This document shows, piece after piece, positions 7,807-39,327 of a stretch of 64,000 bases of DNA. The stretch covers positions 129,005 to 193,004 of the forward strand of contig CAVTNG010000009.1 of assembly GCA_963736015.1 (NCBI GenBank). The letters are read 5' to 3'. Source of the DNA: an uncultured Chloroflexia bacterium. GTDB taxonomy: Bacteria; Chloroflexota; Dehalococcoidia; DSTF01; JACRBR01. The position numbers and the translations under genes were made by a program. Under the pieces are notes generated by a model. That model was not told the DNA's origin. It searched no databases and saw only the letters and a program-made list of their open reading frames with translations. The stretch's first letter is position 1; each line of letters opens with the position of its first letter.

Positions 7807-7926
7807 TCCTCGTGCTCCTTACTCCGGCGGCGTCTCCCTTGCGGGCCGAGGCGACCTACTTCCGTTTCGGTCTCCGTCGCCGGGCTACTTCGTGTCCACA
7901 GATGGACACGTAATGACGCGTCTTGA

Positions 7927-8349: not shown

Positions 8350-8465
8350 CGTTCAGTTCTCCATCCGCCGTGCCGTGCGTGCGGCTTCGCCTCGCATACA
8401 CAGCGAAGCCTCGCCCGCGGCGAGGCATCTTACTCCGTCCCTGCGCCCGCAGGTAGCGCGCCGCC

Positions 8466-21917: not shown

Positions 21918-24563
21918 GTGCGCCTCAACCTTCGACGCTGCCCCGTGTTGTCAGGCTTCGTTCTGCCTCTCATGGTCGTCGCGTCAGCCGCGGGCGTCAT
22001 CCCCACTGGCGCTGACCATCAACGCGTGCTCGCGCAGTCGCCCGTCCGGCACTGGAATGGCAACGCGACCGCGCCCGCGATCGATACGCTCTCGATCCAT
22101 GCCGGCAAGCCCGCCAACGCGAAGCTCGATAGCCATCTCGCCGATCTCGCCTCCGTCGTCACCTTCCAGCGCGGCCTCGGCCTCGCGCCCTCCACCAGCG
22201 GCGCGGCGCTCCCCGCCGATCTCGCCTCGCTCGAGGCGGCCGGCGTCCTCCACACCGATGGTCACGGCCGGGTCCAGGTGTACGTCCACTACCAGGGCAA
22301 CGCCGACACGTGACGCAAGGACTCGCCGCGCTCGGCGCCACCGTGCGAGGCGTCCAGTGATGACGATCGCATCATTCAGGCGGAGGTCGATGCAGGCGCA
22401 CTACCCGCCGCCTCCGCCATCGCCGGCGTGACGTTCATCTCACCGCCGGACTACGTCATCCCCGCGACCGGCGCCGCCCTCACACAGGGCGATGCCCTCC
22501 TGCTCGCAAGCCAGGCCCGCACCAACCTCGGCGTCGATGGCACGGGCGTCCGCGTCGGCGTCATCTCCGATGGCATCGCTGGTCTCGCCGCGAGCCAGGG
22601 CTCGAACGACGTCGGCCCCGTGACCTCACAGTCGTTCCGCGCCGACATGAACCTCAACGCCGGGCCGGAGGGCACGGCCATGCTCGAGATCGTGCACGAC
22701 CTCGCCCCCGGCGCCGAGCTCTGGTTCGCCAACGCCAGCACCACCATCGAGTTCGCCAACGCCGTCACTTTCCTCGCTGGCAACGTCGATGTAGTGGTCG
22801 ATGATCTGCGCGCGTTCGGCGGTCCCTACGACGGCACCAGCACCATCTCGATGGCGAGTTCCTCGAACTCCACGAACCCCGCGAAACGCGAGCGCGTCCA
22901 CCTCAACGCCGTCGGCAACGACGCCCTCGACCACTACCAGGAGCCGTTCGTCGCCTCGGGCTTCACTTTCAACGATGGCGGCGTCGCGGCCCCCGTCCAT
23001 GGCTTCCAGGCAACAGCCTCGACAACAGACGGCGGCTTCCCCCAGTTCTGCAACGGCACGAGCGGCATCTCCTGCTGGAACATGCTCGCCCTCCCCGTCG
23101 GCGGTACCGCCACCGTCTTCGTTGAGTGGAACGACCCCTTCGGCGCGTCCTCGAACGACTACGACGCCTTCCTGTTCGACGCCACAAGTCCCGGCCCCAT
23201 CAGTACGAGCACCAACCGGCAGAACGGCACTCAGAATCCCGTCGAGGTCGTCGGCGTAACCAACAACACCGCGCAGCCGCAGGCCTACTTCCTGCTCCTC
23301 GCGAAGTTCGCCGGCGCCACGCGCACCTTCGACATCTTCCTCAGCTGCTCGCCGTTCTGCCTCTTCTTCAACAACAACGCCGACCTCAACTTCAACACCA
23401 TCTCCAGCAGCGTCCCTAACAACTCCGATGCCGGCGGCAACGTCCTCGGCCTCGCCGCCATCGACCAGGCCGATCCCGGCACCGACACCGCCGAGCTCTA
23501 CTCCAGCCGCGGGCCGACGAACGACGCCCGCAACAAGCCCGATATCACCACCGTCGACGGCGTCGCCATCACCGGCAACGGCGGGTTCCCCGTCCCCTTC
23601 TTCGGCACCTCCGCCGCCGCGCCGCACGCAGGCGCCATCGCCGCCCTCGTGCTCCAGTGCTTCCCCGCGCTCAAATCGGGCGAGGTCGGTGACAACCCGG
23701 CCGCGGATCGCGCCACCGTCCGCACGAAGCTCACCTCGGGCCTCACAGATCTCGGCACCGCCGGCGTTGATACCACCTTCGGTGCCGGCCGCATGAACGC
23801 CGTCACCTCCACCACCGGATGCGACAGCGACGTCGATGGCGTCGTTAACGCTTCGGACAACTGCCCCATCCTCGCGAACGCATCGCAGGCCAACTTCGAT
23901 GCCGCGCCCATCGACAACGGCATCGGCATCGTCGGTAACGACGCCTCTGTGCCCGGCGCGGACAACCTCGGCGACGCCTGCGATCCCGACCGCGACAATG
24001 ACGGCCTGCCGGATGCGTCCGAATCCCCGCTCGCCGGTTGCGGCGCCTTCAACGGGATCGTCTCGACGCACCCTAACCCCGCCGGCGGCGACGCCACCGA
24101 CGACGACAACGCCAACGGGGACCCCGCCCCCCTTGATGGTGCCGATCTCGCCGACAACGGCCCCTCCTGGGACACCGACAACGATGGCGTCCGGGATGGT
24201 TACGAGTGCGCCAACGGCTCCAACCCGCGCGACGCCGCGTCGCTTCCGCTGCCCCTCGGCGATGACGCCGCGGACACCGACAACGACGGCCTACTCAACG
24301 GCTGGGAACGCCGCGGCTGGGGCACCGACCCCACAAAGGCCGACACCGATGGCGATGGCAAGTCGGACTGCGCCGAAGCCGGCGACGTCGATGGAAACGG
24401 CAGCTTCAACTTCCCCGGCGACAGCCTAGCCGTCGCCCGCGCCGCCCTCGTCCCGGGCTTTGGCCGCACCAGCGACCTGGACCTCAACAAGGACGGCGTC
24501 GTGAACTTCCCCGGTGATGCCATCAACAGCGCCAAGCGCGCCCTCGGCGTCATCCCCTGCTGA
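21918..24563 (+). pseudogene. ~881-aa secreted S8 (subtilase)-like peptidase with TSP3 + dockerin-like tail; compensating -1/+1 pair at ~22310/~22358 leaves an in-frame TGA
   Basis: GTG 21918 after GGAG, plus a signal peptide. Motifs GVRVGVISDGI and GTSAAAPHAGAIAAL. The local frame-2 stretch VTQGLAALGATVRGVQ bridges TGA 22311-22313. Tail DVDGNGSFNFPGD...DLNKDGVVNFPGD. Confidence 0.8.
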
Positions 24564-27675: not shown

Positions 27676-28434
27676 GTGACCCGGACTACCGAACCGCCCC
27701 CCACCGCCCCGCGCACGACGCGCGTCGACCGCATCCGCGCACGTTGGGATCGCTCCATCCGCCGCATCCGCACTCGCTGGGATCGATTCCTCGATCGCTT
27801 CGAGCACCTCATCGTGCGCTGGGAGGCCGAAGGCGCCACCGTCGACAACAAGCCCATCGTCACCGCCGGCAACCGCCGCATGGCCATCATCGGCATCGGC
27901 AGCGCCCTCGTCGGCACCATCGCCGCCCTCGTCGTCGCCTACACCATCGGCGGCGTCCAGCTCGTCAAGCGCCTCGGCTACGTCGGCGTGTTCCTGTCGT
28001 CCGTCATCGGCTCCGCGTCGATGTTCATCCCCGTCCCCGGCTCCCTCGCCGGCATCACCTTCGGCCTCTTCCTCACGCCGATCCCGCATGTCCCGCAGCC
28101 GCTCACCGTCGCCGTCGTCGTCGCTGCCGGCTCGGCGGTGGGCGAACTCACCGGCTACTCCACCGGCATCGGCGGCCGCGCCGTCATCGGCAACAGCCGC
28201 ATCGGCCGACTCCTCGTCGCCCTCATCCACCGCCACGGCTCGATCACCGTCTTCCTCATCGCCGCCGTTCCCAACCCCTTCATCGATGTCGGAGGCATCG
28301 CCGCCGGCGTCGCCGGCATGCCCATTCGCCGCTTCATGGCGATGATGTTCTGCGGGAAGACCATCAACTACCTGGCCATCGCCTACATCGTCAGCAGCGG
28401 CATCGAGTGGGCCCAGCGCTTCGTCAACGCCTGA
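27676..28434 (+). CDS. DedA/VTT (SNARE-associated, TVP38/TMEM64-like) family membrane protein
   Basis: 252-aa ORF (GTG start), Arg-rich N-terminus, multiple TM helices. Motifs FLSSVIGSASMFIPVPG and FLIAAVPNPFIDVGGIAAG. Confidence 0.65.
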   Translation: MTRTTEPPPTAPRTTRVDRIRARWDRSIRRIRTRWDRFLDRFEHLIVRWEAEGATVDNKPIVTAGNRRMAIIGIGSALVGTIAALVVAYTIGGVQLVKRLGYVGVFLSSVIGSASMFIPVPGSLAGITFGLFLTPIPHVPQPLTVAVVVAAGSAVGELTGYSTGIGGRAVIGNSRIGRLLVALIHRHGSITVFLIAAVPNPFIDVGGIAAGVAGMPIRRFMAMMFCGKTINYLAIAYIVSSGIEWAQRFVNA

Positions 28435-28560
28435 CGCACACCGCTAGACTCACCCGATGCGACGTAGGGGCCGGCTTGTGTGTCGGCCGTGCGCACCCGA
28501 GTCGAAGCTCACGCTTCGCGAACCATGGCGTAGCAATAACCGACTGAACCGGCCGATCCT

Positions 28561-28952
28561 CTACGACGCCTCGATCTTCCACGGCGGATTCAGCCGGTAG
28601 TCGCGCTCCTCGCTGTACAACCTCAGTTCGTGGCCGTCCGGATCGCGAAGGCGCGCCTCGCGCCAGAGGTAGAACATGTCCGTCGGCTCCTGGTAGAACA
28701 CGATCCCCCGCTCCTTAGCGCACGCACGTCGTCATCCACCGACTCGCACTGGAAGAACAGCTCCGCCGGTCCGCCTGCTGAACCCGATGCCTCCCCCTTG
28801 ACCTCGACCGACAGCGTCGCGTCCCCGTCCGGAAACGTGAAGCGCGCGTAGCGCGGCGGCGCATCGACGATCTGGGTCAGCCCGAGCGTCCGGTAGAACG
28901 TCTTCGAGCGTTCGAGATCGCTGACGATGAGCGTGACGTGATTGAAACGCAT
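28561..28952 (-). pseudogene. VOC/glyoxalase family protein, frame change near 28725
   Basis: MRFNHVTLIVSDLERSKTFYRTLGL...FFQCESVDDDV, then in another frame ...IVFYQEPTDMFYLWREARLRDPDGHELRLYSEERDYRL. Length 392 = 3n+2. Confidence 0.7.
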
Positions 28953-29056
28953 GACGTTGCCTCCTCACACCATCATGGCGCGCGGCGTCGCCGCAGGCAT
29001 CGGCCCGCCGGCGCAAACGGCACTACACCTTTGGACGGAGGATGCGCGGCCCGTCG

Positions 29057-29635
29057 CTAGCCCGCGCGACGATGCACTTCAAGCACCGTCGGCTGCGAAA
29101 CATCGGTCTCGACACGCTCGATCCTGTCGCCCGCTCGGACGTCTCCCGCCTCGACCACGCTCGCGTAGAAGCCCGTGCGTCCGGTCTCGCGCATCCGCTC
29201 CTTGAACTCCGGCATCGCCATCCGGATATCGAGCTTGTAGCAGGGCCCCCGCGGCTCCGTCACCCGGAGCAGCGCCTTCCCCGCGCGCAGCACGTCTTCA
29301 ACGCGGACCTCGTCCTCCAGCATCCCCTCCACCGTGAGGTTCTCCCCGAACTGACCGTGGGGAAGCGCCCGCCCCAGCTCCTGCGACCATGTTTCGTAGT
29401 GCGCGGCCGGATAGACGTAGACGGCTTTCCGCTCGCCCCCGTGCACCTGGCGACCGTTGAAGACGCGCGTGTCCGCCTGTCCGTCGCCCGCCAGCCCCCA
29501 CAACCGGACCCGCACCGGACCTTCGACGGCCGATTTGTAGATCCCCGTAACCACGGTGTGCTCGCCGACGACGATCGCGCGCGGCTGCCCGACGTTCACC
29601 GACAGGATCGACAAACTCGTCTCGACCTCGGTCAT
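29057..29635 (-). CDS. MOSC domain-containing protein
   Basis: Start at internal ATG 29635 (MTEVETSLSILSVNVGQP). Motifs: GDGQADTRVF...HGGERKAVYVYP...GENLTVEG...RVTEPRGPCYKL. Confidence 0.8.
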   Translation of the reverse strand: MTEVETSLSILSVNVGQPRAIVVGEHTVVTGIYKSAVEGPVRVRLWGLAGDGQADTRVFNGRQVHGGERKAVYVYPAAHYETWSQELGRALPHGQFGENLTVEGMLEDEVRVEDVLRAGKALLRVTEPRGPCYKLDIRMAMPEFKERMRETGRTGFYASVVEAGDVRAGDRIERVETDVSQPTVLEVHRRAG

Positions 29636-29755
29636 GGCAAAAGTGTAGCGGGCAGGTTGAACGGCGTATGACATTCCAGAGCTGTCGATCCCGGCCTGTC
29701 GTGCGGCGTCGTATCATCAGGCTACTGTCGGGCCACCGGATGAAGTGATCAAACG

Positions 29756-30328
29756 ATGAGTAACGACCGGGCCGAGGCAGCACCTGCGGCGGATGCGGAG
29801 CCGGCACCGACGCCGCGCGATCGCGTGCTGATGTCGATTCGGGCTGACGCGGCGCTGCTTCGCGATGAACTCGTCGCGCGCGTGCGGGCCGTGCAGGACG
29901 AGCTTCTCGGTATCTTCGCCGCAGGGCCTGGCGATGAGCGCGCCCGCTATCACGAAGGCGCCGACTGGTCGATGTCAGACCTGGCGCGCCATGTCATCGA
30001 CGTGGCGGAACGCATCGCTGCGCAGATCGGTGCGCTCGGTGCGGGACAGACGCCGCCGCCGTACAACGTGCCGGACGGGATGGAGATGCAGGTCGAGGAC
30101 GGCGGCGAGACGTTAGAGCAGTGGTGCTCGCGGTTGGGCGGCGCGCACGCATCGGTGCTGGCGGCAATAGACGGCCTGCCCCAGGAGCCCGACCTGGCTG
30201 TTACGTCCGGGCATGACTACTTCGGCCAATTCACCGCGCTCGAGTGGGCCGGGTTCCAGCGGTTTCACATCCTGATCACGCTGGATTACGCGCGTCAGCT
30301 ACTGGAGACTGCCGACACTCGACGCTAG
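29756..30328 (+). CDS. DinB-like / mycothiol-dependent-enzyme-type four-helix bundle protein
   Basis: 190-aa ORF with WSMSDLARHVIDV...EWAGFQRFHILITLDYARQL. Family assignment is tentative. Confidence 0.5.
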   Translation: MSNDRAEAAPAADAEPAPTPRDRVLMSIRADAALLRDELVARVRAVQDELLGIFAAGPGDERARYHEGADWSMSDLARHVIDVAERIAAQIGALGAGQTPPPYNVPDGMEMQVEDGGETLEQWCSRLGGAHASVLAAIDGLPQEPDLAVTSGHDYFGQFTALEWAGFQRFHILITLDYARQLLETADTRR

Positions 30329-30361
30329 GACGGGCGCGGCTCTCGGTACTAACTCGAAGGC

Positions 30362-30416
30362 CTGTGGTGCGGTGAACCCACCTCTCCGCGCCTTCTGCGT
30401 CTCTGCGGTGAACCCC
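30362..30416. repeat. dispersed repeat family B (TCCGCGCCYTCTGCGGTGAACC)
   Basis: ctgtggtgcggtgaaccca...ctccgcgccttctgcgtctctgcggtgaacccc. Second copy at 38389-38413. Confidence 0.55.
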
Positions 30417-30423
30417 AACCCCC

Positions 30424-31270
30424 CTACAGCCCCAGGATCTCCGCCAGCACCGGCCGCACATACTCCATGAACAGCCCCGGATTCTCGCTCATCGGAAAGT
30501 GCCCGAGCCCCGGCATGTCCTGATAACCGCGCCCGGAATCCGCTCCGCCAGCGCCTCGCCATCGCCGGCGTCGATGACCAGTCGTACTCGCCGTACATGA
30601 TGTCGACCGACACGCTCCGACGTATCGATCTGCTCCGCGGTTTCCGTCAGGTCGTGGTCGACGGAGTAGTAGTACAGGTCGCCCTTGAACACCGGCGGCG
30701 CGCCCTGGCTGTACACCCACGATGTCTCGTGCCGCAACGCCTCCGGGCTCGTCGGCGACATCAGCCCGTACATGACGCTTGCCTTGAAATCGTTCGAGAT
30801 CCGCGGGTGATGCCACATGTCCGGCGTACCCGCCGGGCGTGCGCGCCGACGCCTCGAGCCCGACGACCGCGCGGAAACGCTCCGGGTGATGCAGCGCCAG
30901 GTCGATCGCCAGGTGCCCGCCGATCGAACTGCCCATGAACGCGGGCCGCTCCAGCTCCAGCGCGTCCGCGAGCGTCAGCGGCACCTGCATCAGGAAGTCC
31001 TTCGTCAGCCGGTACTCCTGCGTCCACCAGTCCGTGCTCTCTGGCGGCAGCGACTTGCCGTGATACGGCAGGTCGTACGCGATCACGCGGAAACGTTCGC
31101 GCGAGCTCCGCGTCTCCGAGCACGTGCCGCCACTGGCGTCCATCCGCGCCGGCCGTGTGCTGCAGCAGCAACGGAATGCCCGCCCCCGCCTCTTCGAAGT
31201 ACACGCGATGCTCGACGCCGTCGATGGGCAGGTACACGTAGCGCCCGCTGATCGCGTCGAATCGCGCCAT
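30424..31270 (-). pseudogene. alpha/beta-fold hydrolase, about five frame changes
   Basis: MARFDAISGRYVYLPIDGVEHRVYFEEAGAGIPLLLQHTAG / RVIAYDLPYHGKS...AFMGSSIGGHLA (nucleophile elbow GSSIGG) / ...MPGLGHFPMSENPGLF. Pieces lie in three frames. Confidence 0.7.
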
Positions 31271-31642
31271 CACGCCTCTCCGTCCGCGCGCGCCAGCTCG
31301 ATCAGCCGCCGCAGCGCCGCGTAGTACGGCCCCACGATCCTCGACGCGTCCCTCCATCATGAAGCCGTGACGCGCGACAGCGCCGTACAGGTCCTGGTAG
31401 AACGGCCGCGGCCGCGGCTCCAGCATCGCGGCCCACCCGTCCTCGGGCCCGCTGATCCGTATCGCCCCGCTCGTCTTCCGCGGCACCTCGCTCGCTTCTT
31501 CGATGCGGCCGCCGCGCACGGTCATCCGCACCGTGTCTGCCCCGCCCGCGAACACGACGTCTGCATCCCACATGCGCGCCGCCAGCGCGAACTCGCCGTC
31601 GTCGTTCGCCCGCCGCATCGCCGCCAGCATCCGCTCCTTCAC
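31270..31642 (-). pseudogene. small conserved-looking protein (possible SCP2-like fold), frame change near 31335
   Basis: GTG overlaps the PrpD-family stop (GTGA). VKERMLAAMRRANDDGEF...RISGPEDGWAAMLEPRPRPFYQDLYGAV..., then GPYYAALRRLIELARADGEA*. Its stop overlaps the next ATG. Confidence 0.45.
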
Positions 31643-32972
31643 GAAGCCTCCGGCCGCGCGAGCGCGATGATCTCCCGCACAGACGTCGCCGTCTCGATGC
31701 CGTCGATGGCGTCCCGAAGCCGCTCCGCGCGCTCCCGCCCGATCACCGGCGACGCCAGCCCGAAGAACTTCGCCGACAGCGCCTCCCACTGCCGCTCGAG
31801 GTCCGCCGCCGGCCGCCCCGTGTCTGCGTCCGCGCACAGCTCCCGCCCGTCCGCGATCACCCGCACCGATCCCCGCGTCGAGGGCAGCCCCTGCTGCGGC
31901 GCGTACGTCACCCGCTCGAGCATGCCGCGCAGCTCCGCGCTCGCCATCCGCTCGTCCGTGAACGCCTCCGGATCGCCCGTGTCGTCGCCCAGCAGCGCCA
32001 TCGCCGTCGTCGCCCGCAGGCTGAACTTGCCCTCCAGACCCGTCCGCGGCTCCGCGATGTCGCACACGCCGATGCACTCCGCCGATCCCAGGATCGTCGA
32101 CCGACTCGATGTCCTCCGCGCGCAGCCCGTCGCGCCGCAGCGTGAGCGCGGCCTCGATCGGCGCGTGCGTCAGGTAGCACGATGCGTGGTACTTGAACAG
32201 CGTGTCGCGGATCACGAACCGTTCGCCGACGCGCATCGAGCCGCGCCGCGTCCGGCTCGCCGCCGCCGTGCGTCGAAGCGAACCCCTGCGCCGTCTCGAT
32301 GATCGACGTGTTCCCCGTGTACCCGCCGCGCGCCAGCAGCGCCGAGAGCAGCCCGTTCTGCGCCGCCCGCCCCGCGTGCAGCGGCTTCGCCATCGTCCCG
32401 AAGCCGGATTTCAGCCCCGCCGCCTGCGTCCCCGCCAGTGCCATCGCCTGCAGCGTCCGCTCCCGGTCGAGCCCGAGCAGCCGCGCGCACGCCATCGCCG
32501 CGCCGAACGTCCCCAGCGTGCCCGTCGCGTGGAAGCCCAGCGCGTAGTGCCCCGGATTGAGCAGCGCCCCCAGCCGGCACTCCGTCTCGACGCCCGCGAT
32601 CACCGCATCGATGAACGCCGCACCGCCGATGCCCTCCCGCTCTGCAAGCGCCAGCGCCGCCGGCACCACGGGCACGCTCGGGTGCCCCGACATCATCGTG
32701 TGCGTGTCGTCGAAATCCAGCGCGTGCGACGCCGCCCCGTTGATCAGCGCCGCCGACAGCATCCCCGCCCGCTGGCACCGCCCCACCAGCCCCGCGTCGC
32801 CGCCCTCGATCGCCTCCCGCGTCAGGATCTCCGCCAGCGGCTCCCGCGCCCCCGCGATCGCGCACCCGAACCAGTCCAGCAGGCAATGCCGCGCAACGAT
32901 GCGCGCCTCATCACTGACCGCGCCCCGCATCATCCCATCGATGCGCTCAACCAGATCGAGAGTGATCCCCAT
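31639..32972 (-). pseudogene. MmgE/PrpD family protein (2-methylcitrate dehydratase superfamily), two frame changes (~32240, ~32097)
   Basis: MGITLDLVERI...CLLDWFGCAIAG...ASHALDFDDTH...GFHATGTLGTFGAA, then ERFVIRDTLFKYHASCYLTHAPIEA, then STILGSAECIGVCDIAEPRTGLEGKFS. Confidence 0.8.
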
Positions 32973-33040
32973 AAACAACCCTGTCGCCTTGAACCGCAGC
33001 TCGTCAGCAGCAACCAGGCCCGTCAACCGAGTCCAAGCCT

Positions 33041-33066
33041 GTCATCCTGAGCGTAGCGAGGATCCG
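33041..33066. repeat. dispersed repeat family A copy
   Basis: gtcatcctgagcgtagcgaggatccg, in the spacer upstream of the PrpD-family gene. Confidence 0.55.
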
Positions 33067-33134
33067 TCCGACTTGTCCCGACCGATCGTAGCTCGCGCCG
33101 GGTCCGAGGGCGGCCACCATTATGCCCCCGATTC

Positions 33135-33210
33135 ACGATACTCCCCTCATGCCCGACTTCGACCCCTCCGCCTACACCCTCCTCCGCAAAGGCCACGCCT
33201 TCGAGGACTT
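33135..33210 (+). repeat. direct repeat DR1: duplicate of the 5' UTR plus first 21 codons of the MaoC-like gene
   Basis: 75/76 nt identical to 33784-33859 (offset 649). Carries ATG 33149 and a truncated 29-codon ORF ending with TGA at 33236-33238. Confidence 0.85.
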
Positions 33211-33272
33211 GACGCCGTCGGCCCTCAATCGCACCTGACCGGCACCGAGTGGATAAGGCGCGCGCCTTCGCG

Positions 33273-33695
33273 TCAGCTCTTGCGCGTCAGCACGACGACC
33301 GGGATCGTCCGCGCCGCATTCTTCGCGTACTCGATGAACTGAGGCATCTTCTCCGCATGCTGCGCGTACAGGCGCTCATGCTCCGCGCCGCTGGCGATCG
33401 TCGCTTCTACGGCGATCACTTCGGTGTCCACCTCGATCACCGCGGATGGGTTCGCGACGAGGTTGTGGAACCAGTCGGGACTCGACGGCGCGCCGCCCTT
33501 GGACGCCACGATCACGAATCGGTCGCCGTCCCTGCTGTACGCAAGCGGGTTCCAGCGCGTCTGCCCCGTTCGCGCCCCCGTCGTCGTGAGGATGAGGATG
33601 TCCATCCCTTCCAGCCGCCCGCCCACCTTGCCGCCGTTCGCGTGGAACTCGGCCATGATCTGCCTGTTGAAGTCGTCCATAGCCGGGTTGGGCAT
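33273..33695 (-). CDS. deazaflavin (F420)-dependent nitroreductase family protein (Ddn/DUF385-like)
   Basis: ATG 33695 follows AGGAGG. MPNPAMDDFNRQIMAEFHANGGKVGG...ILILTTTGARTGQTRWNPLAY...VIVASKGGAPSSPDWFHNL. Confidence 0.8.
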   Translation of the reverse strand: MPNPAMDDFNRQIMAEFHANGGKVGGRLEGMDILILTTTGARTGQTRWNPLAYSRDGDRFVIVASKGGAPSSPDWFHNLVANPSAVIEVDTEVIAVEATIASGAEHERLYAQHAEKMPQFIEYAKNAARTIPVVVLTRKS

Positions 33696-33783
33696 CGATG
33701 CGCCTCCTGTCGTTGCGTGGTCCGACCAGTCCCGGCCCGTGCCGGCACGTCGCTGCGGGTAGCCGCCCCCACATCCCCGATCT

Positions 33784-33859
33784 ACGATACTCCCCTCATG
33801 CCCGACTTCGATCCCTCCGCCTACACCCTCCTCCGCAAAGGCCACGCCTTCGAGGACTT
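33784..33859 (+). repeat. direct repeat DR2 (functional 5' end of the MaoC-like gene)
   Basis: Partner of DR1. Weaker similarity extends about 30 nt further upstream on both copies. Confidence 0.85.
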
Positions 33860-34293
33860 CACACCCGGCGCCACTTTCACGCACCACTGGGGCCGCACCC
33901 TCACCGACGCCGATAACGCCATCTTCACCGCCGCCACCCTCGCCTACAACCCCCTCTACTTCAACGCCGAGCACGCCCGCGCCAACGGCCATCCCACGAC
34001 CGTCATCAATCCGATGCTCGTGCTCTGCACCGTCGTCGGCCTCTCCGTCGAGGACCTGAGCGAGGCCGGCGGCCCATTCCTCGGCGTCGATGACTGCGAC
34101 TTCCGCGCCGCCCGTCTACCCCGGCGATACTCTCACCGCCGAAAGCACCGTCGTGTCAGCACGCGAGTCTGGCTCCCGTCCCGGCTTCGGCATCGTCACG
34201 TGGCGCACAACCGGCCGAAACCAGCGCGCCGAGACCGTCGTCGAGTACACCCGAACGAACCTCGTCGCGAAGCGGCGCGGAGGCTCCTCGTGA
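33798..34293 (+). pseudogene. MaoC-like (R)-specific enoyl-CoA hydratase (itaconyl/mesaconyl-CoA hydratase-like), frame change near 34103
   Basis: MPDFDPSAYTLLRKGHAFEDFTPGATFTHHWGRTLTDADNAIFTAATLAYNPLYFN..., then PVYPGDTLTAESTVVSARES...IVTWRTTGRNQ. Length 3n+1. Confidence 0.8.
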
Positions 34294-35492
34294 GCGAAGG
34301 CAACCCCTACCTCACCGAAGAGCGTCTCGAGATCCAGGCCGCCGCCCGCGCCTTCGCGATGGACGAAGTGCTCCCGCTCGCCAACGAGCTCGACAAGCAG
34401 AAGGCCGACATCCCCCGCGACTTCCTCCGCCGCCTCGGCCAGGCCGGCTACTTCGGCATCATGATCGGCCGCGAGCACGGCGGCATGGGCCTCGGCGTCT
34501 TCGAGTACGCCCTCATCACCGAGGAGCTCGCCCGCGGCTGGATGTCCGTCGCCAGCATCATCGCCCGCGGCAACGGCATGGGCACCAACTCTCGCGATCC
34601 GCAGCGCCGCGCCGAGTTGCTCCGAAAGAGCGCCGCCGGCGAATGGATCGGCGCCGCCGCGCTCTCCGAGCCGAGCGCCGGCTCCGATCTCGCCAACATC
34701 CAGTGCCGCGCCACGCGCGATGGCGACGACTACGTCATCTCCGGCGAGAAGCGCTGGTGCGGCAACGCCCTCGCCGCCGACTTCATCATGCTCCTCGCCC
34801 GTTCCGCGGACCCGGCCGAGGGCGAGAACCGCTCCCGCGGCCTCGAGAGCTTCCTTATAGAGAAGAAGCGCGACGCCTTCCCCGAAGGCCTCACCGGCAC
34901 CCCCATCGACAAGATCGGCTACTACGGCATCACGACGTTCCACCTCGTCTTCGACGACCTCCGCGTCCCCTCCGATGCGCTCCTCGGCGCCCGCGCCAAC
35001 GACGCCGCCCACACCCCGCGCGCCGCCGGCCGCGCCTTCAACGCCACCATGCACGGCCTCAACATCGCCCGCATCCACACCGCCGCCCGCGCCATCGGCC
35101 TCGCCCGCGGCGCCCTCGAGGACTCGCTCGCCTACGCCGCCGAGCGCGTGCAGTTCGGCCGCCCCATCGGCGCCTTCCAGGCCATCCGCTTCAAGCTCGC
35201 CGACATGGCCACCCAGATCGAGGCCGCCCGCGCCCTCATGTACCAGGTCGCGCAGCGATGCGACGCCGGCGAGAACATAGAGAAGGAAGCGGCCATGGCG
35301 AAGCTCTTCGCCACCGAGATGGCCGAGCGCGTCACCGGCGAGGCCATCCAGGTCCACGGCGGCAACGGCTACACCACCGAGCGCGCGGTCGAGCGCTACT
35401 GGCGCGATGCCCGCCTCACCACCATCTTCGAGGGCACGTCCGAGATCCAGCGCGTCATCATCTCCGACCGCCTCCTCGGCCGCTCCCGATGA
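34290..35492 (+). CDS. acyl-CoA dehydrogenase (canonical FEGTSEIQ type)
   Basis: GTG overlaps the upstream stop (GTGA). 400-aa intact ORF with GAAALSEPSAGSDLANI...GEKRWCGN...IFEGTSEIQRVIISDRLLG. Confidence 0.9.
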   Translation: MSEGNPYLTEERLEIQAAARAFAMDEVLPLANELDKQKADIPRDFLRRLGQAGYFGIMIGREHGGMGLGVFEYALITEELARGWMSVASIIARGNGMGTNSRDPQRRAELLRKSAAGEWIGAAALSEPSAGSDLANIQCRATRDGDDYVISGEKRWCGNALAADFIMLLARSADPAEGENRSRGLESFLIEKKRDAFPEGLTGTPIDKIGYYGITTFHLVFDDLRVPSDALLGARANDAAHTPRAAGRAFNATMHGLNIARIHTAARAIGLARGALEDSLAYAAERVQFGRPIGAFQAIRFKLADMATQIEAARALMYQVAQRCDAGENIEKEAAMAKLFATEMAERVTGEAIQVHGGNGYTTERAVERYWRDARLTTIFEGTSEIQRVIISDRLLGRSR

Positions 35493-35966
35493 CGAGTCAC
35501 CGGCGCGCACAACTATTTCGAAGACTTCATCCCCGGCGCCCGCTACCGCCACGCCCGCGGCACCACCGTCGGCGAGGTCGAGAACCAGCTCCTCACCAAG
35601 CTCGTCATGAACACCGCCCACGCCCACTTCAACGAGCACGCCATGAAGGACGGTCCCTTCGGCCAGCGCATCGTCTTCGGCCTCGTCACCGGCTCCATCA
35701 TCATCGGCCTCGCCACCCAGGACTGCGCCGAGAACGCGCTCGCCGAGCTCCGGCTCGATAAGATGCGCTTCACGGCCCCCGTCTTCCACGGCGATACCCT
35801 CTACGCCTACACCGAGGTGCTCGCCGTCGACGACGCCGATCGCCCGGACGCCGGCGTCGTGCGCTTCAAGCACACCGGCACGAATCAGGACAACGCCGTC
35901 GTCTTCGAATGCGAGCGCACGGTGCTGATCAAGCGCCGCCCGCCGCAGCAGCAGGAGCAGCCATGA
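35489..35966 (+). pseudogene. second MaoC-like hydratase, frame change within the first few codons
   Basis: Frame 0 reads VTGAHNYFEDFIPGARYRHARGTTVGEVENQLLTKLVMNTAHAHFNEH...FTAPVFHGDTLYAYTEV but has no start. ATG 35489 (ATGA overlap with the ACAD stop) is in frame 2. Confidence 0.75.
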
Positions 35967-37183
35967 CCGAGCGCACCGGCCCCCTCACCGACCTGCGCGT
36001 GATCGATCTCACCCAGGCGCTCGCCGGTCCCTTCTGCACCATGCTCCTCGCCGATCTCGGCGCCGACGTCATCAAGGTCGAACCTGCCCGCGGCGACATG
36101 ACGCGCGGCATGCCCCCCTGGCGCGGCGACCGCGAGGCCGCGCCCTACGGCGGCTACTTCGCCAGCATCAACCGCAACAAGCGCAGCATCGCCCTCGATC
36201 TCCGCAAGGACGCCGACCGCGAGGTCCTCTTCCGCCTCGTCGAGACCGCCGACGCCGTCGTCGAGAACTCGCGCACCGGCGTCATGGACCGCCTCGGCGT
36301 CGGCTACGAGACCATGCGCGCCCGCAACCCCCGCATCGTCTACGGCGCCATCCGCGGCTTCGGCGATCCCCGCACCGGCGCCAGCCCCTACGCCGACTGG
36401 CCCGCGTTCGATGTCATCGCGCAGAGCATGGGCGGCGTCGTCGGCCTCACCGGCCCCACCGGCTCGAAGGGCTTCCCCGCCGGCTCCAGCATCGGCGATC
36501 TCGTCCCGGGCACCATGACGGCGCTTGGCATCGTTTCCGCCATCTACCGCGCGAAGCAGACCGGCGAGGGCCAGTTCGTCGATGTCGCCATGTACGACGC
36601 CATCCTCGCCATCTGCGAGAACCTCGTGTACCAGTACTCGTTCGCGGGCCGCGTGCTCGAGCCGAAGGGCACCGGTCACGCCGCCCTCTGCCCGTTCGAC
36701 GTCTTCGAGACGTCGGACGGCGCCGTCGCCATCGCCGCCCCCACTCCGCACCACTGGAGCGTGCTCTGTGCCATCATCGATCGCGTCGACCTGATCGATG
36801 ATCCCCGCACGTTCGAGAACATCGCCCGCCTCGAGCACAGCGACATCGTCATCGACGCCATCTCGTCGTGGACGAAGCAGCGCACGCGCCTCCAGGTCGT
36901 CGAAGAGCTGTCCGGCCGCGTACCCTGCGGCCCGGTGAACACCGCCACCGACATCTTCAACGACCCGCACGTCGCCGCCCGCGGCATGCTCGCCGATGTC
37001 GAGCTGCCCGATGGCGAGCGCGTCCAGATCGCCGCCCCGCCGATCAAGTTCACAGAGACCCCCACGCGCGTCTACCGCCGTCCACCGCTCCTCGACGAGC
37101 ACCGCGCCGAGATCCTCGCCGAAGCCGGCATCGAAGACCCCGGCTCATCAGCGAAGGTGCCAACGAAGGACACCGCATCATGA
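35963..37183 (+). CDS. family III CoA-transferase (CaiB/BaiF; itaconate/mesaconate CoA-transferase-like)
   Basis: ATGA overlap. MTERTGPLTDLRVIDLTQALAGPFCTMLLADLGADVIKVEP...YFASINRNKRSIALDL. 406 aa, intact. Confidence 0.9.
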   Translation: MTERTGPLTDLRVIDLTQALAGPFCTMLLADLGADVIKVEPARGDMTRGMPPWRGDREAAPYGGYFASINRNKRSIALDLRKDADREVLFRLVETADAVVENSRTGVMDRLGVGYETMRARNPRIVYGAIRGFGDPRTGASPYADWPAFDVIAQSMGGVVGLTGPTGSKGFPAGSSIGDLVPGTMTALGIVSAIYRAKQTGEGQFVDVAMYDAILAICENLVYQYSFAGRVLEPKGTGHAALCPFDVFETSDGAVAIAAPTPHHWSVLCAIIDRVDLIDDPRTFENIARLEHSDIVIDAISSWTKQRTRLQVVEELSGRVPCGPVNTATDIFNDPHVAARGMLADVELPDGERVQIAAPPIKFTETPTRVYRRPPLLDEHRAEILAEAGIEDPGSSAKVPTKDTAS

Positions 37184-38088
37184 CCACCCGCCTCCGCCGC
37201 TCCGAGCTCGCCGTCCCTGGCTCCCAGCCCCGCATGATCGAAAAGGCGCCAACCTCCGGCGCCGACCTCGTCTTCCTCGACCTCGAGGACGCCGTCGCGC
37301 CGCCGCAGAAGGAACACGCGCGCGCCGCCGTCATCGACGCCCTCAACGACCTCGACTGGGGCCGCACCGTCCGCGCTGTCCGCGTCAACTCCGTCGACAC
37401 CGTCTGGGCCCACGACGACGTCATCGACGTCGTCACGAACGCCGGCGCGAATCTCGACATCATCATCGTCCCGAAGGTGAAGGCCCCGCGCGACGTCTGG
37501 TTCGTCGACACGCTTCTCTCGCAACTCGAAGCGAAACTCCGCCTCGATCACCGCATCGGCCTCGAGCTGCTGATCGAAGAGACGGAAGCCCTCGCGCGCG
37601 TCGAGGACATCGCCGCCTGCTGTCCCCGCGTCGAGGCGCTGATCCTCGGCGTCGGCGACCTCTCCGCCAGCCAGGGCATCCGCTCCGGCCACGTCACCGA
37701 CCCGTCGATGCGCTACCCCGGCGACATGTGGCACTACGCCCGCAACCGCATGATCGTCGCCGCCCGCGCCAACGGCCTCGACGCCATCGACGGCCCCTAC
37801 CCCAACTATCGCGACGCCGATGGTTACCGCCGCGACGCCACCTGGGGCAGCACGCTCGGTTGCGCCGGCAAGTGGTGCATCCATCCCTCGCAGATCGAGA
37901 TCGCCAACGACGTCTTCGCCCCCACCGAAAAGGAGATCGCCCTCGCCCAACGCATGTGCGATGCCTACGAATCCGCCCAGAGCGGCGGCGCCGGCGCCGC
38001 CGGCGAGTCCGGCGTCCTCGTCGACGCCGCCTCCGTCCGCATCTTCCAGGCCGTCCTCGACCGCGCCCGCCTCACCGGCCGCCTCTAA
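37180..38088 (+). CDS. HpcH/HpaI aldolase / citrate lyase beta (CitE)-like acyl-CoA lyase (citramalyl/malyl-CoA lyase-like)
   Basis: ATGA overlap. MTTRLRRSELAVPGSQPRMIEKAPTSGADLVFLDLEDAVAP...IIVPKV...GVGDLSAS...GKWCIHPSQI. Confidence 0.9.
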   Translation: MTTRLRRSELAVPGSQPRMIEKAPTSGADLVFLDLEDAVAPPQKEHARAAVIDALNDLDWGRTVRAVRVNSVDTVWAHDDVIDVVTNAGANLDIIIVPKVKAPRDVWFVDTLLSQLEAKLRLDHRIGLELLIEETEALARVEDIAACCPRVEALILGVGDLSASQGIRSGHVTDPSMRYPGDMWHYARNRMIVAARANGLDAIDGPYPNYRDADGYRRDATWGSTLGCAGKWCIHPSQIEIANDVFAPTEKEIALAQRMCDAYESAQSGGAGAAGESGVLVDAASVRIFQAVLDRARLTGRL

Positions 38089-38116
38089 CCCGCGCTCGCC
38101 GCCACCCACACGCGGA

Positions 38117-38198
38117 GGGCAGGCGCCCGCCTGCCCAGGCACCTGATCGCGCCCGCGACCCGTCCACCACCGTGGGGCGCAGGCGCCCCCGCCTGCGC
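38117..38198 (+). terminator. two related GC-rich hairpins downstream of the lyase gene (REP-like; no U-tract)
   Basis: GGGCAGGC-GCCC-GCCTGCCC (38117-38136) and GCGCAGGC-GCCCCC-GCCTGCGC (38177-38198). Confidence 0.3.
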
Positions 38199-38255
38199 GA
38201 GCGTCGATCATGGCACTGTGCGATGGGCCCTTGACGCCTCCGCTGCACCCGATAC

Positions 38256-38313
38256 GTCATCCTGAGCGCCAGCCCTGTCATCCTGAGCGCCAGCGAAGCA
38301 ACTGGCTCGATCC
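38256..38313. repeat. dispersed repeat family A, half unit plus full unit
   Basis: gtcatcctgagcgccagccct + gtcatcctgagcgccagcgaagcaactggctcgatcc. Confidence 0.6.
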
Positions 38314-38388
38314 GCAACCACCGCCACAACTCCCGGGCATACCCGCGCGCTCCGCGTCATCACGCCCTACCGCCTCCCTCCCCTAAAG

Positions 38389-38413
38389 CCTCCGCGCCCT
38401 CTGCGGTGAACCG
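38389..38413. repeat. dispersed repeat family B copy
   Basis: cctccgcgccctctgcggtgaaccg. Compare 30384-30416. Confidence 0.55.
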
Positions 38414-38483
38414 ATCCCCGAAACCTTGAGCATTGTGACCCCCTGCACTAACCTGCCCCCGAAGCCAGAATCCGGAGACCCAC

Positions 38484-39023
38484 ATGTCCCTCGATACCCG
38501 CTGGACCGACGTCGACGCGCTCCTCACACGCTCCCCCCGGACCCAGGAGGAGACGCTCGCCCAGGCCGTCACCCAGATCGCCGAGCTGCGCTTCAAGTAC
38601 CCCACACCCGAGCTCCCCTCCTACCGCTCCTACGTCAACGTGCCCGCGGTCACCATGGCCGTGCAGTCCGGCAAGGATGAGCTCACTCCCGACATCGTCG
38701 TCGTCGAGCGCATCAACACCGGCGAGACCGAGCTTCGCATCACGGCCGCCGTCGCCAATGAGGAGCAGGTGACCGAGGCCGAGGCGAAGCTCCGCTGGGC
38801 CCGCTTCGCAGCCATTCCCGACACGGCCTTCTACCTCTTTGTGCCCGTCGGCTACGGCGCTCAGGCGAAGAAGATCGCCCACGGCCTGAAGATCCGCGTC
38901 GAAGGCTTCCGCACCTGGCGCACCACCCCGCGCGGCTTTGAGATCAACGACATCTCCGGCGCCCCCGGCGCCTTCAACGCCCTCATGCCCGGCTTCGTCC
39001 GCCGCTTCATGGCCACCCCGTAA
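38484..39023 (+). CDS. hypothetical protein (orphan, flanked by repeat-dense spacers)
   Basis: 179-aa ORF, GGAG about 10 nt upstream of the ATG. No family recognised by eye. Confidence 0.5.
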   Translation: MSLDTRWTDVDALLTRSPRTQEETLAQAVTQIAELRFKYPTPELPSYRSYVNVPAVTMAVQSGKDELTPDIVVVERINTGETELRITAAVANEEQVTEAEAKLRWARFAAIPDTAFYLFVPVGYGAQAKKIAHGLKIRVEGFRTWRTTPRGFEINDISGAPGAFNALMPGFVRRFMATP

Positions 39024-39131
39024 CGCGCACTTCCCACATCCGTCTCTTCGAAGGGCGCCACATCGAATGTGGCGTCGCCTGGTTCTGACGACGGTCGAAC
39101 GCCTCTACGGCCCGCACGCCCCGAACGCCCT

Positions 39132-39178
39132 GCCATCCCGAGCGCCAACCATGTCATCCCGAGCGCTAGCGAGGGATC
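39132..39178. repeat. dispersed repeat family A, half unit plus full unit
   Basis: gccatcccgagcgccaaccat + gtcatcccgagcgctagcgagggatc. Confidence 0.6.
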
Positions 39179-39327
39179 TACTCCGCACCACCTCCACCGT
39201 CACATCTCCCGCTACCCCGGCGCGCGCCGCCCACCGCTCGGAGTTCGACCCCCGCCCGGCGTACCATCGCCACATGCGCATCGGGACCGACACCTCACTC
39301 CAACACCACCGGCCGCCAAGCACCCTG

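What the first reader, a model, noticed from the sequence alone, without database searches (positions are those of the whole stretch)
33105..33865. Ddn-like F420 nitroreductase gene inserted between 76-bp direct repeats that duplicate the start of the MaoC gene
nt 33135-33210 and 33784-33859 are 75/76 identical (offset 649 nt), with weaker similarity about 30 nt further upstream. Each copy contains the 5' UTR, ATG and first 21 codons of the MaoC-like gene. The left copy is a dead 29-codon stub (33149-33238). The right copy heads the real gene. The 573 bp between them carry a complete opposite-strand Ddn/DUF385-type gene with its own AGGAGG RBS and a palindrome AAGGCGCGCGCCTT (33255-33268) just past its stop. 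This looks like a single-gene cassette insertion, or a duplication-mediated capture, into the divergent control region of the C5-dicarboxylate cluster. A 76-bp duplication is far longer than a normal transposase target-site duplication.
Basis: seen in the sequence. Interest (0 to 1): 0.6.

Follow-up and report, generated by a model that had tools for sequence, protein, structure and literature searches.

The report
Old gene insertion flanked by duplicated gene start
A small F420-dependent reductase gene sits between two copies of the control region and first 22 codons of a neighbouring hydratase gene; this is a real recombination scar shared by at least three related soil bacteria, not a fresh mobile-element insertion or an assembly error.

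Summary
Copies at 33126-33216 and 33775-33865 are 95% identical (core 75/76) and 649 nt apart. They flank a 140-aa PF04075 (Ddn-type) gene on the minus strand. The left copy heads a dead 29-codon stub and the right copy heads the MaoC-type hydratase gene.

- **Extent.** Weaker homology runs further upstream, so the duplicated unit is about 150 nt (-78 to +68 of the MaoC ATG). It probably carries the divergent promoter region, not a 5' UTR.
- **Empty site.** More distant relatives have PrpD and MaoC directly adjacent, so the reductase gene is an insertion.
- **Age.** The insertion is not recent. A ~92%-identical contig has both copies and the same junctions. A ~87-90% lineage, seen in four short-read contigs, has PrpD-Ddn-MaoC but lacks the fresh left copy.
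- **Mobile element.** No transposase, integrase or terminal inverted repeats are present.
- **Best reading.** An old recombination-driven insertion-duplication, after which the two copies kept recombining. The segment bounded by the copies differs by only ~1.3% from the 92% relative, while its flanks differ by 10-17%.
- **Elsewhere in the genome.** At least four other loci show the same stub-insert-intact-gene layout, with mostly synonymous differences between the copies.

Interest is moderate.

The parts
31651..32972 (-). MmgE/PrpD-family gene, start ATG 32970-32972, read in at least three frames (frameshifted in this assembly)
   Evidence: PF03972 at E 3.4e-61. tblastn pieces 32969-32235, 32221-32096 and 32085-31651 lie in different frames. 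An intact 442-aa orthologue at 88% identity exists in short-read contigs.
33041..33064 (+). REP-like hairpin element GTCATCCTGAGCGTAGCGAGGATC. It lies immediately left of the left copy and is absent from the same spot in L022.
   Evidence: 16 copies in the genome at up to 4 mismatches, with stem variants ATCCT/AGGAT, ATTCC/GGAAT, ATTCT/AGAAT and ATCCC/GGGAT. Absent in the L022 alignment.
33066..33216 (+). Left copy of the duplicated unit (-78..+68 of MaoC): control region plus the first 22-23 codons. High-identity part 33126-33216.
33149..33238 (+). Dead 29-codon stub ORF (21 MaoC codons, then 8 unrelated codons and a stop)
   Evidence: Translation. In L022 the same stub has a 1-nt deletion and three amino-acid-changing substitutions in its first 26 nt.
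33217..33272 (.). 56-nt junction piece J between the stub and the reductase stop codon; contains the palindrome at 33255-33268
   Evidence: Not a decayed continuation of MaoC (z 0.9). Identical in L022. Only its last ~16 nt are recognisable in the GD lineage. Fold not significant.
33273..33695 (-). 140-aa F420H2-dependent quinone reductase / deazaflavin-dependent nitroreductase family gene (Ddn-type, FDOR-A), with AGGAGG at 33703-33708
   Evidence: PF04075 at E 1.8e-39. PDB relatives 8d4w (2e-36), 3h96 (7e-29) and 3r5l/3r5r Ddn (1e-23 to 6e-22).
33720..33865 (+). Right copy of the duplicated unit, with the working control region and start of MaoC. High-identity part 33775-33865.
   Evidence: Its upstream part resembles the PrpD-MaoC intergenic region of another genus (L015: z 5.7; for the L023 version z 11).
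33798..34293 (+). MaoC / mesaconyl-CoA-hydratase-type gene, broken by one extra base near 34100-34110
   Evidence: PF19315 matches profile positions 19-109 in one frame and 110-168 in another. The alignment with the intact L109 gene shows CGCGCCGCCCG against CGCGC-GCCCG.
34290..35492 (+). Acyl-CoA dehydrogenase, the next gene of the operon
   Evidence: PF00441, PF02771 and PF02770.

Best explanation
This is a recombination scar, not a mobile element.

**Origin.** In an ancestor of at least three lineages that now differ by about 8-13%, a reductase gene was placed between the divergent PrpD and MaoC genes. The gene is of the Ddn / F420H2 quinone reductase family. It arrived without its own promoter: 24 nt of leader with the RBS, the 423-nt CDS and 56 nt of 3' flank. 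The event also left two copies of an ~150-nt unit that holds the MaoC-side control region and the first 22 codons of MaoC.

**Resulting layout.**
- The right copy keeps the hydratase operon intact with its own promoter.
- The reductase gene takes the place that PrpD has relative to that control region.
- The left copy became a dead stub.

**Mechanism (inferred).** This layout (promoter plus 5' stub, insert, promoter plus intact gene) is what an insertion-duplication gives. Two routes fit:
1. A single homologous cross-over of a circular piece that carries the gene start.
2. One homologous cross-over inside the operon plus one illegitimate join at codon 22/23 of the resident gene.

**Later history (inferred).** The two direct copies have since acted as recombination substrates, through gene conversion and exchange between lineages. 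This would explain three facts:
- In this genome the stub is 75/76 identical to the live copy.
- In the 92% relative only the 3' 40 nt of the stub are identical to the live copy.
- In the 87-90% lineage the fresh stub is gone.

Shown here: the anatomy, the empty site in outgroups, the shared arrangement and the mosaic divergence. Inferred: the type of recombination.
For: **Anatomy.**

**Longer homology.** -78..+68, z 8.2.

**Ancestral state.**
- PrpD and MaoC are adjacent in G021 (L015) and L024.
- A different gene (glyoxalase) occupies the same gap in G011.

**The reductase gene came without its own control region.**
- Orthologues elsewhere (70-83% aa) share an upstream GCTGGCGGTACG...CCTGTCAGGCT motif that the window copy lacks.
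- Its upstream shows no significant similarity to theirs (z < 1).
- In four genera the orthologue sits at a conserved site. The counterpart of that site in this genome (C4:134.2 kb) holds only a 56% paralogue.

**The same arrangement occurs in other lineages.**
- L022 has both copies and identical junctions.
- L023 and L109 have Ddn-101 nt-MaoC.
- L110 and L111 have PrpD-122 nt-Ddn.
- A Logan contig has the same gene geometry.

**The stub is dispensable.**
- It is absent or heavily decayed in the GD lineage.
- It is frameshifted in L022.

**Recombination between the copies.**
- Window and L022 differ by about 1.3% over 33175-33861 (9 mismatches and 2 indels in 687 nt).
- The flanks differ far more: 17% in the PrpD 5' end and 12% in MaoC. 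The switch points lie inside the left copy and at the end of the right copy.

**No recombinase.** No transposase or integrase family appears in the +/-10 kb gene table, and no inverted repeats lie at the insert ends.

**Same layout elsewhere in the genome.**
- C12:153427/156701, C11:138750/140549, C9:337609/338274 and the mirror case C3:23024/24032.
- Over these four loci and the main locus, copy differences are 31 synonymous to 9 non-synonymous codons. One locus has 12 to 0.
Against: - The type of recombination cannot be read from the sequence. Neither a donor arrangement lacking the stub nor a close relative (above 90% identity) with an empty site was found.
- The window-versus-L022 mosaic could partly reflect strain-switching in error-rich long-read assemblies. 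L022 has at least 7 indels in 500 nt of MaoC, and the window's genome scores only 51% complete on 13 contigs.
- It is unresolved whether the GD lineage keeps a decayed stub (GD versus the unit: z 5.4-6.0) or only the native intergenic region (its L022 orthologue versus L015: z 4.8).
- The upstream half of the window's left copy is closer to the GD right copy than to its own right copy. A simple recent conversion from its own partner does not explain that.
Confidence: 0.6

Rival explanations
1. The unit is an actively mobile, recombinase-free cassette. The 649-nt unit (one repeat copy, J and the reductase gene) is excised as a circle by RecA-type recombination between its direct repeats. It re-integrates by a single cross-over into the MaoC start of related genomes that have an empty site. 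The window and L022 would then have acquired it separately and recently.
For: - The near-identical tract shared with L022 starts inside the left copy (about +27) and ends at the end of the right copy (about +64).
- The 5' part of each left copy and everything to its left is lineage-specific.
- This is the pattern a single cross-over in the +27..+62 stretch predicts.
- The window's left control region looks like an ordinary native intergenic region.
- Similar stub-insert-gene layouts recur in the genome.
Against: - A double cross-over between two genomes that already carry the structure gives the same pattern, because the repeat core is the longest identical stretch nearby.
- No empty site was found in any relative closer than 81% MaoC identity.
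- No circle junction or second insertion site was found. The unit is unique in the genome and in the collections searched.
- The GD lineage carries an older, 12% diverged version at the same place, which fits vertical descent.
Confidence: 0.17
2. One reading: a recent insertion or duplication-mediated capture in this genome, with the 76-91-nt copies still nearly identical because the event is young.
For: - Core identity of 75/76.
- The reductase gene is absent from this position in other genera.
Against: - The same insertion occurs in lineages 8-13% diverged.
- The outer ~55 nt of the duplicated unit are only about 68% identical.
- The stub is partly decayed in L022 and missing or decayed in the GD lineage.
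Confidence: 0.05
3. The left copy is kept by selection because it works. For example, it could be a second operon-type promoter that drives a leaderless micro-ORF, or an antisense transcript running into the 3' end of the reductase gene and coupling its expression inversely to the hydratase operon.
For: - The left copy keeps the TACGAT-like box (CACGAT) and the ATG at the same spacing as the right copy.
- It faces the reductase gene convergently.
- It shows almost no decay in this genome.
Against: - The stub reading frame is broken in L022.
- The whole left copy is dispensable in the GD lineage.
- No consensus promoter, terminator, Rfam family or significant fold was found.
Confidence: 0.08
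4. Assembly artefact: the two copies are one sequence that was duplicated or mis-joined by the assembler.
For: The assembly is rich in indel errors: MaoC, PrpD and the FO-synthase gene are all split, and completeness is 51%.
Against: - A second contig that differs by about 8% carries the same two junctions base for base.
- Short-read contigs from four other samples independently place the reductase gene between PrpD and MaoC.
- The sequences next to each copy are unique and different.
Confidence: 0.03

Closest known systems
Insertion-duplication by single cross-over (Campbell-type integration of a circle carrying a 5' gene fragment; textbook knowledge)
   Same: The product has the same layout. 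A promoter plus truncated 5' fragment comes first, then the inserted DNA, then a promoter plus complete gene. The insert is bounded by direct repeats equal to the homology segment.
   Different: - No plasmid or phage backbone is present.
- The insert is a single 0.5-kb gene.
- The homology is only about 150 nt.
- No circular form has been observed.
Homology-facilitated illegitimate recombination (de Vries & Wackernagel 2002; Prudhomme et al. 2002; Meier & Wackernagel 2003, as cited in PMC5361080; E. coli case PMC3240628)
   Same: - One end of the incoming DNA is anchored by homology (here the MaoC operon).
- The other end is joined illegitimately (here at codon 22/23 of the resident gene), trapping foreign DNA next to the anchor.
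- It predicts that the stub and the live copy are alleles from two lineages. This fits the mostly synonymous differences at the other stub loci.
   Different: - The mechanism is described experimentally for transformation or conjugation in a few model species, usually with deletion of resident DNA.
- Here the process is only inferred.
- The donor arrangement has not been found.
Sequential displacement of gene ends at Rhs, CDI and T6SS effector loci ('orphan' modules; PMC5361080 and the papers it cites)
   Same: - Incoming modules recombine in a conserved part of a gene.
- They push the old variable end aside as a dead fragment that keeps a short stretch of the conserved sequence.
- The proposed mechanism is the same.
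   Different: - Those are 3' ends of toxin genes, displaced downstream under diversifying selection.
- Here the 5' end and promoter of an ordinary catabolic operon are displaced upstream.
- The gained gene is a redox enzyme.
Transposon or IS target-site duplication, and integron gene cassettes
   Same: A single gene is bounded by direct repeats and carries its own RBS but no promoter, as in an integron cassette.
   Different: - The repeats are 91-150 nt of host gene sequence, against 2-14 bp for target-site duplications.
- There are no terminal inverted repeats.
- No transposase or integrase lies nearby.
- No attC-like site was recognised.
Ddn (Rv3547) and the FDOR-A F420H2-dependent quinone reductases of mycobacteria (PMC3567243; review PMC8498797)
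   Same: - Same Pfam family over the full length.
- Same size.
- Closest solved relatives are FDOR-A proteins and Ddn.
   Different: - The substrate is unknown.
- The organism is a Chloroflexota/Dehalococcoidia-type soil bacterium.
- No N-terminal membrane-anchoring extension was examined.

Membership tests
F420H2-dependent quinone reductase / deazaflavin-dependent nitroreductase family (PF04075, FDOR-A) | Full-length match to the family profile above the curated cut-off | tested here: met
   135.3 bits against a cut-off of 22, E 1.8e-39, profile positions 3-129 of 130.
F420H2-dependent quinone reductase / deazaflavin-dependent nitroreductase family (PF04075, FDOR-A) | Sequence relatives with solved split-beta-barrel FDOR structures | tested here: met
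   8d4w (2e-36), 3h96 FDR-A (7e-29) and 3r5l/3r5p/3r5r Ddn (1e-23 to 6e-22). The fold itself was not predicted here.
F420H2-dependent quinone reductase / deazaflavin-dependent nitroreductase family (PF04075, FDOR-A) | The organism can make cofactor F420 | tested here: inconclusive
   - CofH/FO-synthase-like pieces lie at C12:115.7-118.0 kb. They are split over four frames and each falls below the cut-off.
- CofD-family hits were found, but that family also hits non-F420 organisms.
F420H2-dependent quinone reductase / deazaflavin-dependent nitroreductase family (PF04075, FDOR-A) | F420H2-dependent reduction of a quinone, nitro or enoate substrate | not testable with these tools
   Needs an enzyme assay.
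Transposable element with target-site duplication | Transposase gene and/or terminal inverted repeats at the insert ends | tested here: not met
   - No inverted repeat lies at 33217 or 33719.
- No transposase or integrase Pfam family appears among the genes within +/-10 kb of the equivalent locus.
- The unit occurs once in the genome.
Integron gene cassette | attC recombination site and a nearby integron integrase | tested here: not met
   - No integrase family in the +/-10 kb table.
- The only palindrome is a 14-nt GC palindrome with no significant fold.
- No attC model was run.
Insertion-duplication product (single cross-over / Campbell type) | Direct repeats bounding the insert, with a truncated copy upstream and a complete copy with its own upstream region downstream | tested here: met
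Insertion-duplication product (single cross-over / Campbell type) | A circular or excised form and an empty site within the population | not testable with these tools
- An empty site was seen only in more distant lineages.
Homology-facilitated illegitimate recombination product | Stub and live copy are alleles of two lineages, so they differ mainly at synonymous sites | tested here: inconclusive
   - Main locus: 3 synonymous against 1 non-synonymous, too few to decide.
- Other stub loci in the genome: 12:0, 10:7, 5:1 and 1:0.
Itaconate / C5-dicarboxylate-type CoA-ester degradation cluster (context) | Hydratase, acyl-CoA dehydrogenase and family III CoA-transferase in one operon | tested here: met
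   - PF19315, PF00441/PF02771/PF02770 and PF02515 hits.
- A tblastn match to the downstream presumed HpcH/CitE-type lyase ORF in L013 and L015 shows that the same gene order is conserved there. The lyase was not scanned against Pfam here.
- The substrate was not tested.

The most novel reading that the evidence does not exclude
The repeat-bounded reductase gene is one instance of a general, recombinase-free way of moving single genes in this uncultured Chloroflexota lineage. Genes bounded by copies of a neighbour's start (or end) would loop out by homologous recombination and re-enter related genomes at the same gene start, or be trapped by one-sided homologous recombination. Either route leaves a trail of 5' stubs. 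The four further stub-insert-gene loci in this genome, and the cassette-shaped low-divergence tract shared with a ~92% relative, would be its footprints.
Probability: 0.15. Interest if true: 0.65.

Novelty: new member of a known kind. Interest (0 to 1): 0.35.

Why it matters
- **A rare three-stage record.** The locus is a clean natural example of how a gene can be added next to an operon without breaking it, by copying the operon's control region and first codons. Three stages are preserved in related genomes: a fresh stub, a half-decayed stub, and a stub that is lost or decayed.
- **A possible regulatory consequence.** The incoming gene arrived without its own promoter and now sits where PrpD sits relative to the duplicated control region. 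An F420-dependent reductase may therefore have been wired to a C5-dicarboxylate catabolic regulon. This is an inference.
- **A possible general process.** If the other stub loci in the genome have the same origin, recombination with diverged relatives is a common route of gene-order change in this poorly known soil lineage. Such dead 5' stubs could then be used as markers of past gene flow.
- **What it is not.** It is not a new kind of genetic system.

Tried and rejected
- **Exact-protein look-up of the window's reductase.** Nothing was returned. The 98% cluster representative gave L022 instead.
- **Metagenome scan with the reductase protein.** It returned 80 loci, none with MaoC or PrpD next to the gene and none matching the flanks.
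- **Contexts of the 83%-identical orthologues (L105-L108).** They are unrelated to this locus.
- **J as a decayed continuation of MaoC.** Rejected (z 0.9).
- **Native reductase promoter carried along.** Rejected (z < 1 against five native upstream regions).
- **Palindrome as a terminator or structured RNA.** Rejected.
- **Rfam.** No match.
- **A third, older stub in L022.** I considered this because the orthologous GD gap resembles the duplicated unit (z 5.4-6.0). However, the L022 segment itself aligns with the ordinary intergenic region of another genus (z 4.8) and not with the unit (z 0.3-0.9). The question is left unresolved.
- **CofD (PF01933) as a marker of F420 synthesis.** Uninformative, because it also hits E. 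coli and other non-F420 controls.
Full report
**1. Observation**

- The repeat finder returns one two-copy direct family, 33126-33216 and 33775-33865. It is 91 nt long, 95% identical and 649 nt apart. The core 33135-33210 / 33784-33859 has a single mismatch.
- A word-size-7 BLAST of both copies and of the piece between them against the whole 2.7-Mb assembly finds the 91-mer only at these two places. The insert matches only a 71% paralogous gene on another contig.
- The left copy opens a 29-codon ORF (33149-33238) that leaves the MaoC reading after codon 21.
- The right copy opens the hydratase gene at ATG 33798 (PF19315 / PF01575).
- Between them, on the minus strand, 33273-33695 encodes a 140-aa protein. 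It matches PF04075 (F420H2-dependent quinone reductase, the Ddn family) over the whole profile at E 1.8e-39. Its closest solved relatives are FDOR-A proteins and Ddn itself. AGGAGG lies 7 nt before its ATG.
- The 14-nt GC palindrome lies at 33255-33268. It is neither a consensus terminator nor a significant fold, and Rfam finds nothing in 32800-34000.

**2. The duplicated unit is longer than 76-91 nt**

A local alignment of the DNA upstream of the two ATGs is significant (z 8.2, 0 of 300 shuffles). It pairs 33066-33216 with 33720-33865. The outer ~55 nt are only about 68% identical and contain small indels.

The unit therefore spans about -78 to +68 of the MaoC start. The truly inserted piece is about 33217-33719. 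It consists of 56 nt of 3' flank ('J'), the 423-nt CDS and 24 nt of leader with the RBS.

MaoC has no Shine-Dalgarno sequence, and a TACGAT box lies 9 nt upstream of its ATG. This is an inference from the sequence; the sigma-70 consensus scan finds nothing.

**3. The reductase gene is an insertion and came without its own control region**

The window's species is the only member of its genus among 36 species of its family.
- In another genus (G021, locus L015) and in a metagenome contig whose MaoC is 81% identical (L024), PrpD and MaoC are divergently adjacent. About 100-110 nt lie between them and no gene.
- In G011 a glyoxalase-family gene occupies the same gap, so this intergenic region accepts genes repeatedly.
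- These intergenic regions share boxes (GCGGCCAGTATAGC ... GATCTA.GAT.G..CCCTCATG). The window's right copy and, even better, the right copy of L023 also contain them (z 5.7 and 11).
- Orthologues of the reductase (70-83% aa) lie elsewhere. In four genera they sit at one conserved site whose counterpart in this genome (C4:134.2 kb) holds only a 56%-identical paralogue. Other orthologues lie in other contexts.
- Several of these native copies share an upstream motif, GCTGGCGGTACG..CCTGTCAGGCT, which the window's copy lacks. Its upstream shows no significant similarity to theirs.

**4. The arrangement is real and old**

- *L022.* The reductase protein's cluster representative (98% identical) lies on an 82.7-kb ENA metagenome contig, L022. 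This contig is colinear with the window over 20 kb at about 92% identity. It has both copies, the same stub-J junction and the same reductase-control-region junction.
- *The 'GD' lineage.* A third lineage is about 87-90% identical and is represented only by short-read contigs from four Chinese soil samples.
  - L023 and L109 show the reductase gene, 101 nt, then an intact MaoC and the start of the acyl-CoA dehydrogenase gene.
  - L110 and L111 show the 3' end of the reductase gene, 122 nt, then an intact PrpD.
- *A Logan contig.* It carries a 96% MaoC and has a minus-strand gene ending 101 nt upstream. No DNA was available for it.

An assembly artefact is excluded for practical purposes.

**5. 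What happened to the left copy in the three lineages**

- *Window.* The stub is 97-99% identical to the live copy.
- *L022.* The last ~40 nt of the stub, J and everything up to the right copy are virtually identical to the window. The first 26 nt of the stub carry a 1-nt deletion and four substitutions, three of which change the amino acid. The DNA to its left is barely alignable with the window's and lacks the REP-like element.
- *GD lineage.* The 122-nt gap is clearly orthologous to the left intergenic region of L022 (z 20.6). It stops at ...CGCAAAGG and continues after 16 nt into the reductase stop codon. About 119 nt (-13..+68 plus most of J) are missing, flanked in L022 by an AAGG microhomology.
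- *Unresolved point.* The GD gap resembles the duplicated unit under lenient scoring (z 5.4-6.0). Its L022 orthologue, however, aligns with the ordinary intergenic region of another genus (z 4.8) and not with the unit (z 0.3-0.9). So the GD gap may hold a very decayed stub or none.

Either way the left copy is dispensable. This argues against a conserved function.

**6. Recombination between the copies and between lineages**

In MaoC the three lineages are roughly equidistant: 10-14% mismatches, with L022 inflated by errors. Yet over 33175-33861 the window and L022 differ at only 9 positions plus 2 indels in 687 nt. The PrpD 5' end differs by about 17% and MaoC beyond +70 by about 12%.

The low-divergence tract begins inside the left copy (about +27) and ends at the end of the right copy (about +64). 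Other low-divergence patches occur in the 20-kb comparison, for example 38100-39300. Exchange between these lineages, or strain-switching in the assemblies, is therefore not unique to this spot.

A dead stub inherited from before the split of lineages 10% apart should not be identical to its partner over 36-76 nt. Gene conversion, or re-creation of the structure by a new cross-over, is therefore required. Both of the following give the observed pattern, and I could not separate them:
- a double cross-over between two genomes that already have the structure;
- a single cross-over of an excised circle into an empty site.

**7. How the structure arose**

The layout 'control region plus 5' stub, insert, control region plus intact gene' is the textbook product of insertion-duplication by one homologous cross-over.

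It is equally what homology-facilitated illegitimate recombination gives when the incoming DNA carries an extra gene upstream of the anchor. That mechanism was shown experimentally in Acinetobacter, S. pneumoniae, P. stutzeri and E. coli (references in PMC5361080; PMC3240628).

The latter mechanism has been proposed for the displaced 'orphan' ends at Rhs, CDI and T6SS effector loci (PMC5361080). A transposase or integrase origin has no support.

**8. The same layout elsewhere in this genome (followed up only in part)**

A self-comparison lists several short, high-identity direct repeats 0.5-3.3 kb apart.
- Three have the upstream region and/or first 17-58 codons of a gene repeated upstream of the intact gene, with unrelated DNA between: C12:153427/156701, C11:138750/140549 and C9:337609/338274.
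- One is the mirror image at a gene's 3' end: C3:23024/24032.

Differences between each stub and its intact partner are mostly synonymous: 12:0, 10:7, 1:0 and 5:1, and 3:1 at the main locus. This pattern is expected if the two copies diverged as functional alleles in different lineages before being brought together. It is not expected from neutral decay after an in-genome duplication. That favours recombination with diverged relatives as a general source of such stubs.

**9. Function**

The reductase family uses F420H2 to reduce quinones and other activated compounds (PMC3567243; PMC8498797). FO-synthase-like sequence is present in the genome but is split by the assembly's frameshifts.

The insertion may put the gene under the C5-dicarboxylate regulon. 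The gene may also act on an unsaturated intermediate of that pathway. Both ideas are speculation.

**10. Verdict**

- This is a new, well-documented member of a known kind of recombination scar.
- Interest is moderate, raised somewhat by the multi-lineage series and by the recurrence within the genome.

Noticed in passing
window 34100-34110: The MaoC hydratase gene is broken by one extra base (CGCGCCGCCCG, against CGCGC-GCCCG in the intact short-read orthologue L109). Through the wrong frame it runs on into the acyl-CoA dehydrogenase gene as a 747-codon ORF. Given the rest of the assembly, this is probably a sequencing indel.
   Followed up: partly
window 31651-32972, and the genome as a whole: - PrpD is read in at least three frames.
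- The FO-synthase (CofH-like) gene at C12:115.7-118.0 kb is split into four.
- The genome scores 51% complete despite only 13 contigs.
This points to an indel-rich long-read assembly, so apparent pseudogenes here should not be trusted.
   Followed up: partly
window 33041-33064 (also C7, C9, C10, C11 and C12 of the genome): - The REP-like element GTCATCCTGAGCGTAGCGAGGATC has 16 copies at up to 4 mismatches.
- The 5-bp stem changes in a compensatory way (ATCCT/AGGAT, ATTCC/GGAAT, ATTCT/AGAAT, ATCCC/GGGAT) around a constant GAGCGTAGCGA loop.
- Related genomes of the family also carry it.
- The copy here sits exactly at the outer edge of the left repeat and is missing in L022.
   Followed up: partly
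genome C12:153427-153673 / 156701-156947; C11:138750-138926 / 140549-140722; C9:337609-337733 / 338274-338397; C3:23024-23132 / 24032-24140: - Four more loci have a gene's start (or, on C3, its end) repeated 0.7-3.3 kb away from the intact gene, with unrelated DNA between.
- Differences between the copies are mostly synonymous (12:0, 10:7, 1:0, 5:1).
- They may share one origin with the finding.
   Followed up: partly
genome C4:134209-134631; loci L018-L021: - In four genera of the family the orthologue of the window's reductase lies at one conserved site between the same neighbours.
- This genome has only a 56%-identical paralogue there, while its closer copy sits at MaoC.
- Either the gene moved, or the resident copy was replaced.
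   Followed up: partly
L016, L017, L025 and L105, upstream of the reductase orthologues: A conserved upstream motif, GCTGGCGGTACG(N10-14)CCTGTCAGGCT, lies about 35-70 nt before the start codons of reductase orthologues in unrelated contexts. It is a candidate operator or promoter of this gene family and is absent from the window's copy.
   Followed up: no
L013 (G011) 7911-8377: In another genus a glyoxalase/VOC-family gene occupies the same PrpD-MaoC gap, on the MaoC strand and directly behind the conserved intergenic boxes. The gap appears to be a recurrent landing place for small genes.
   Followed up: no
L023 positions 1-133 (reverse of the contig end): The last 133 nt of this 1060-nt short-read contig match the acyl-CoA dehydrogenase gene in inverted orientation (window 34537-34405). 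This is probably a chimeric contig end. L109, from the same lineage, is colinear.
   Followed up: no
window 28200-39300 compared with L022: Divergence between the window and the related contig is mosaic. Patches of 0.3-2% (for example 38100-39300 and 31500-31800) alternate with 8-15%. One ~1.2-kb block (29100-30300) is unalignable. The cause is either frequent exchange between lineages or strain-switching during assembly.
   Followed up: partly
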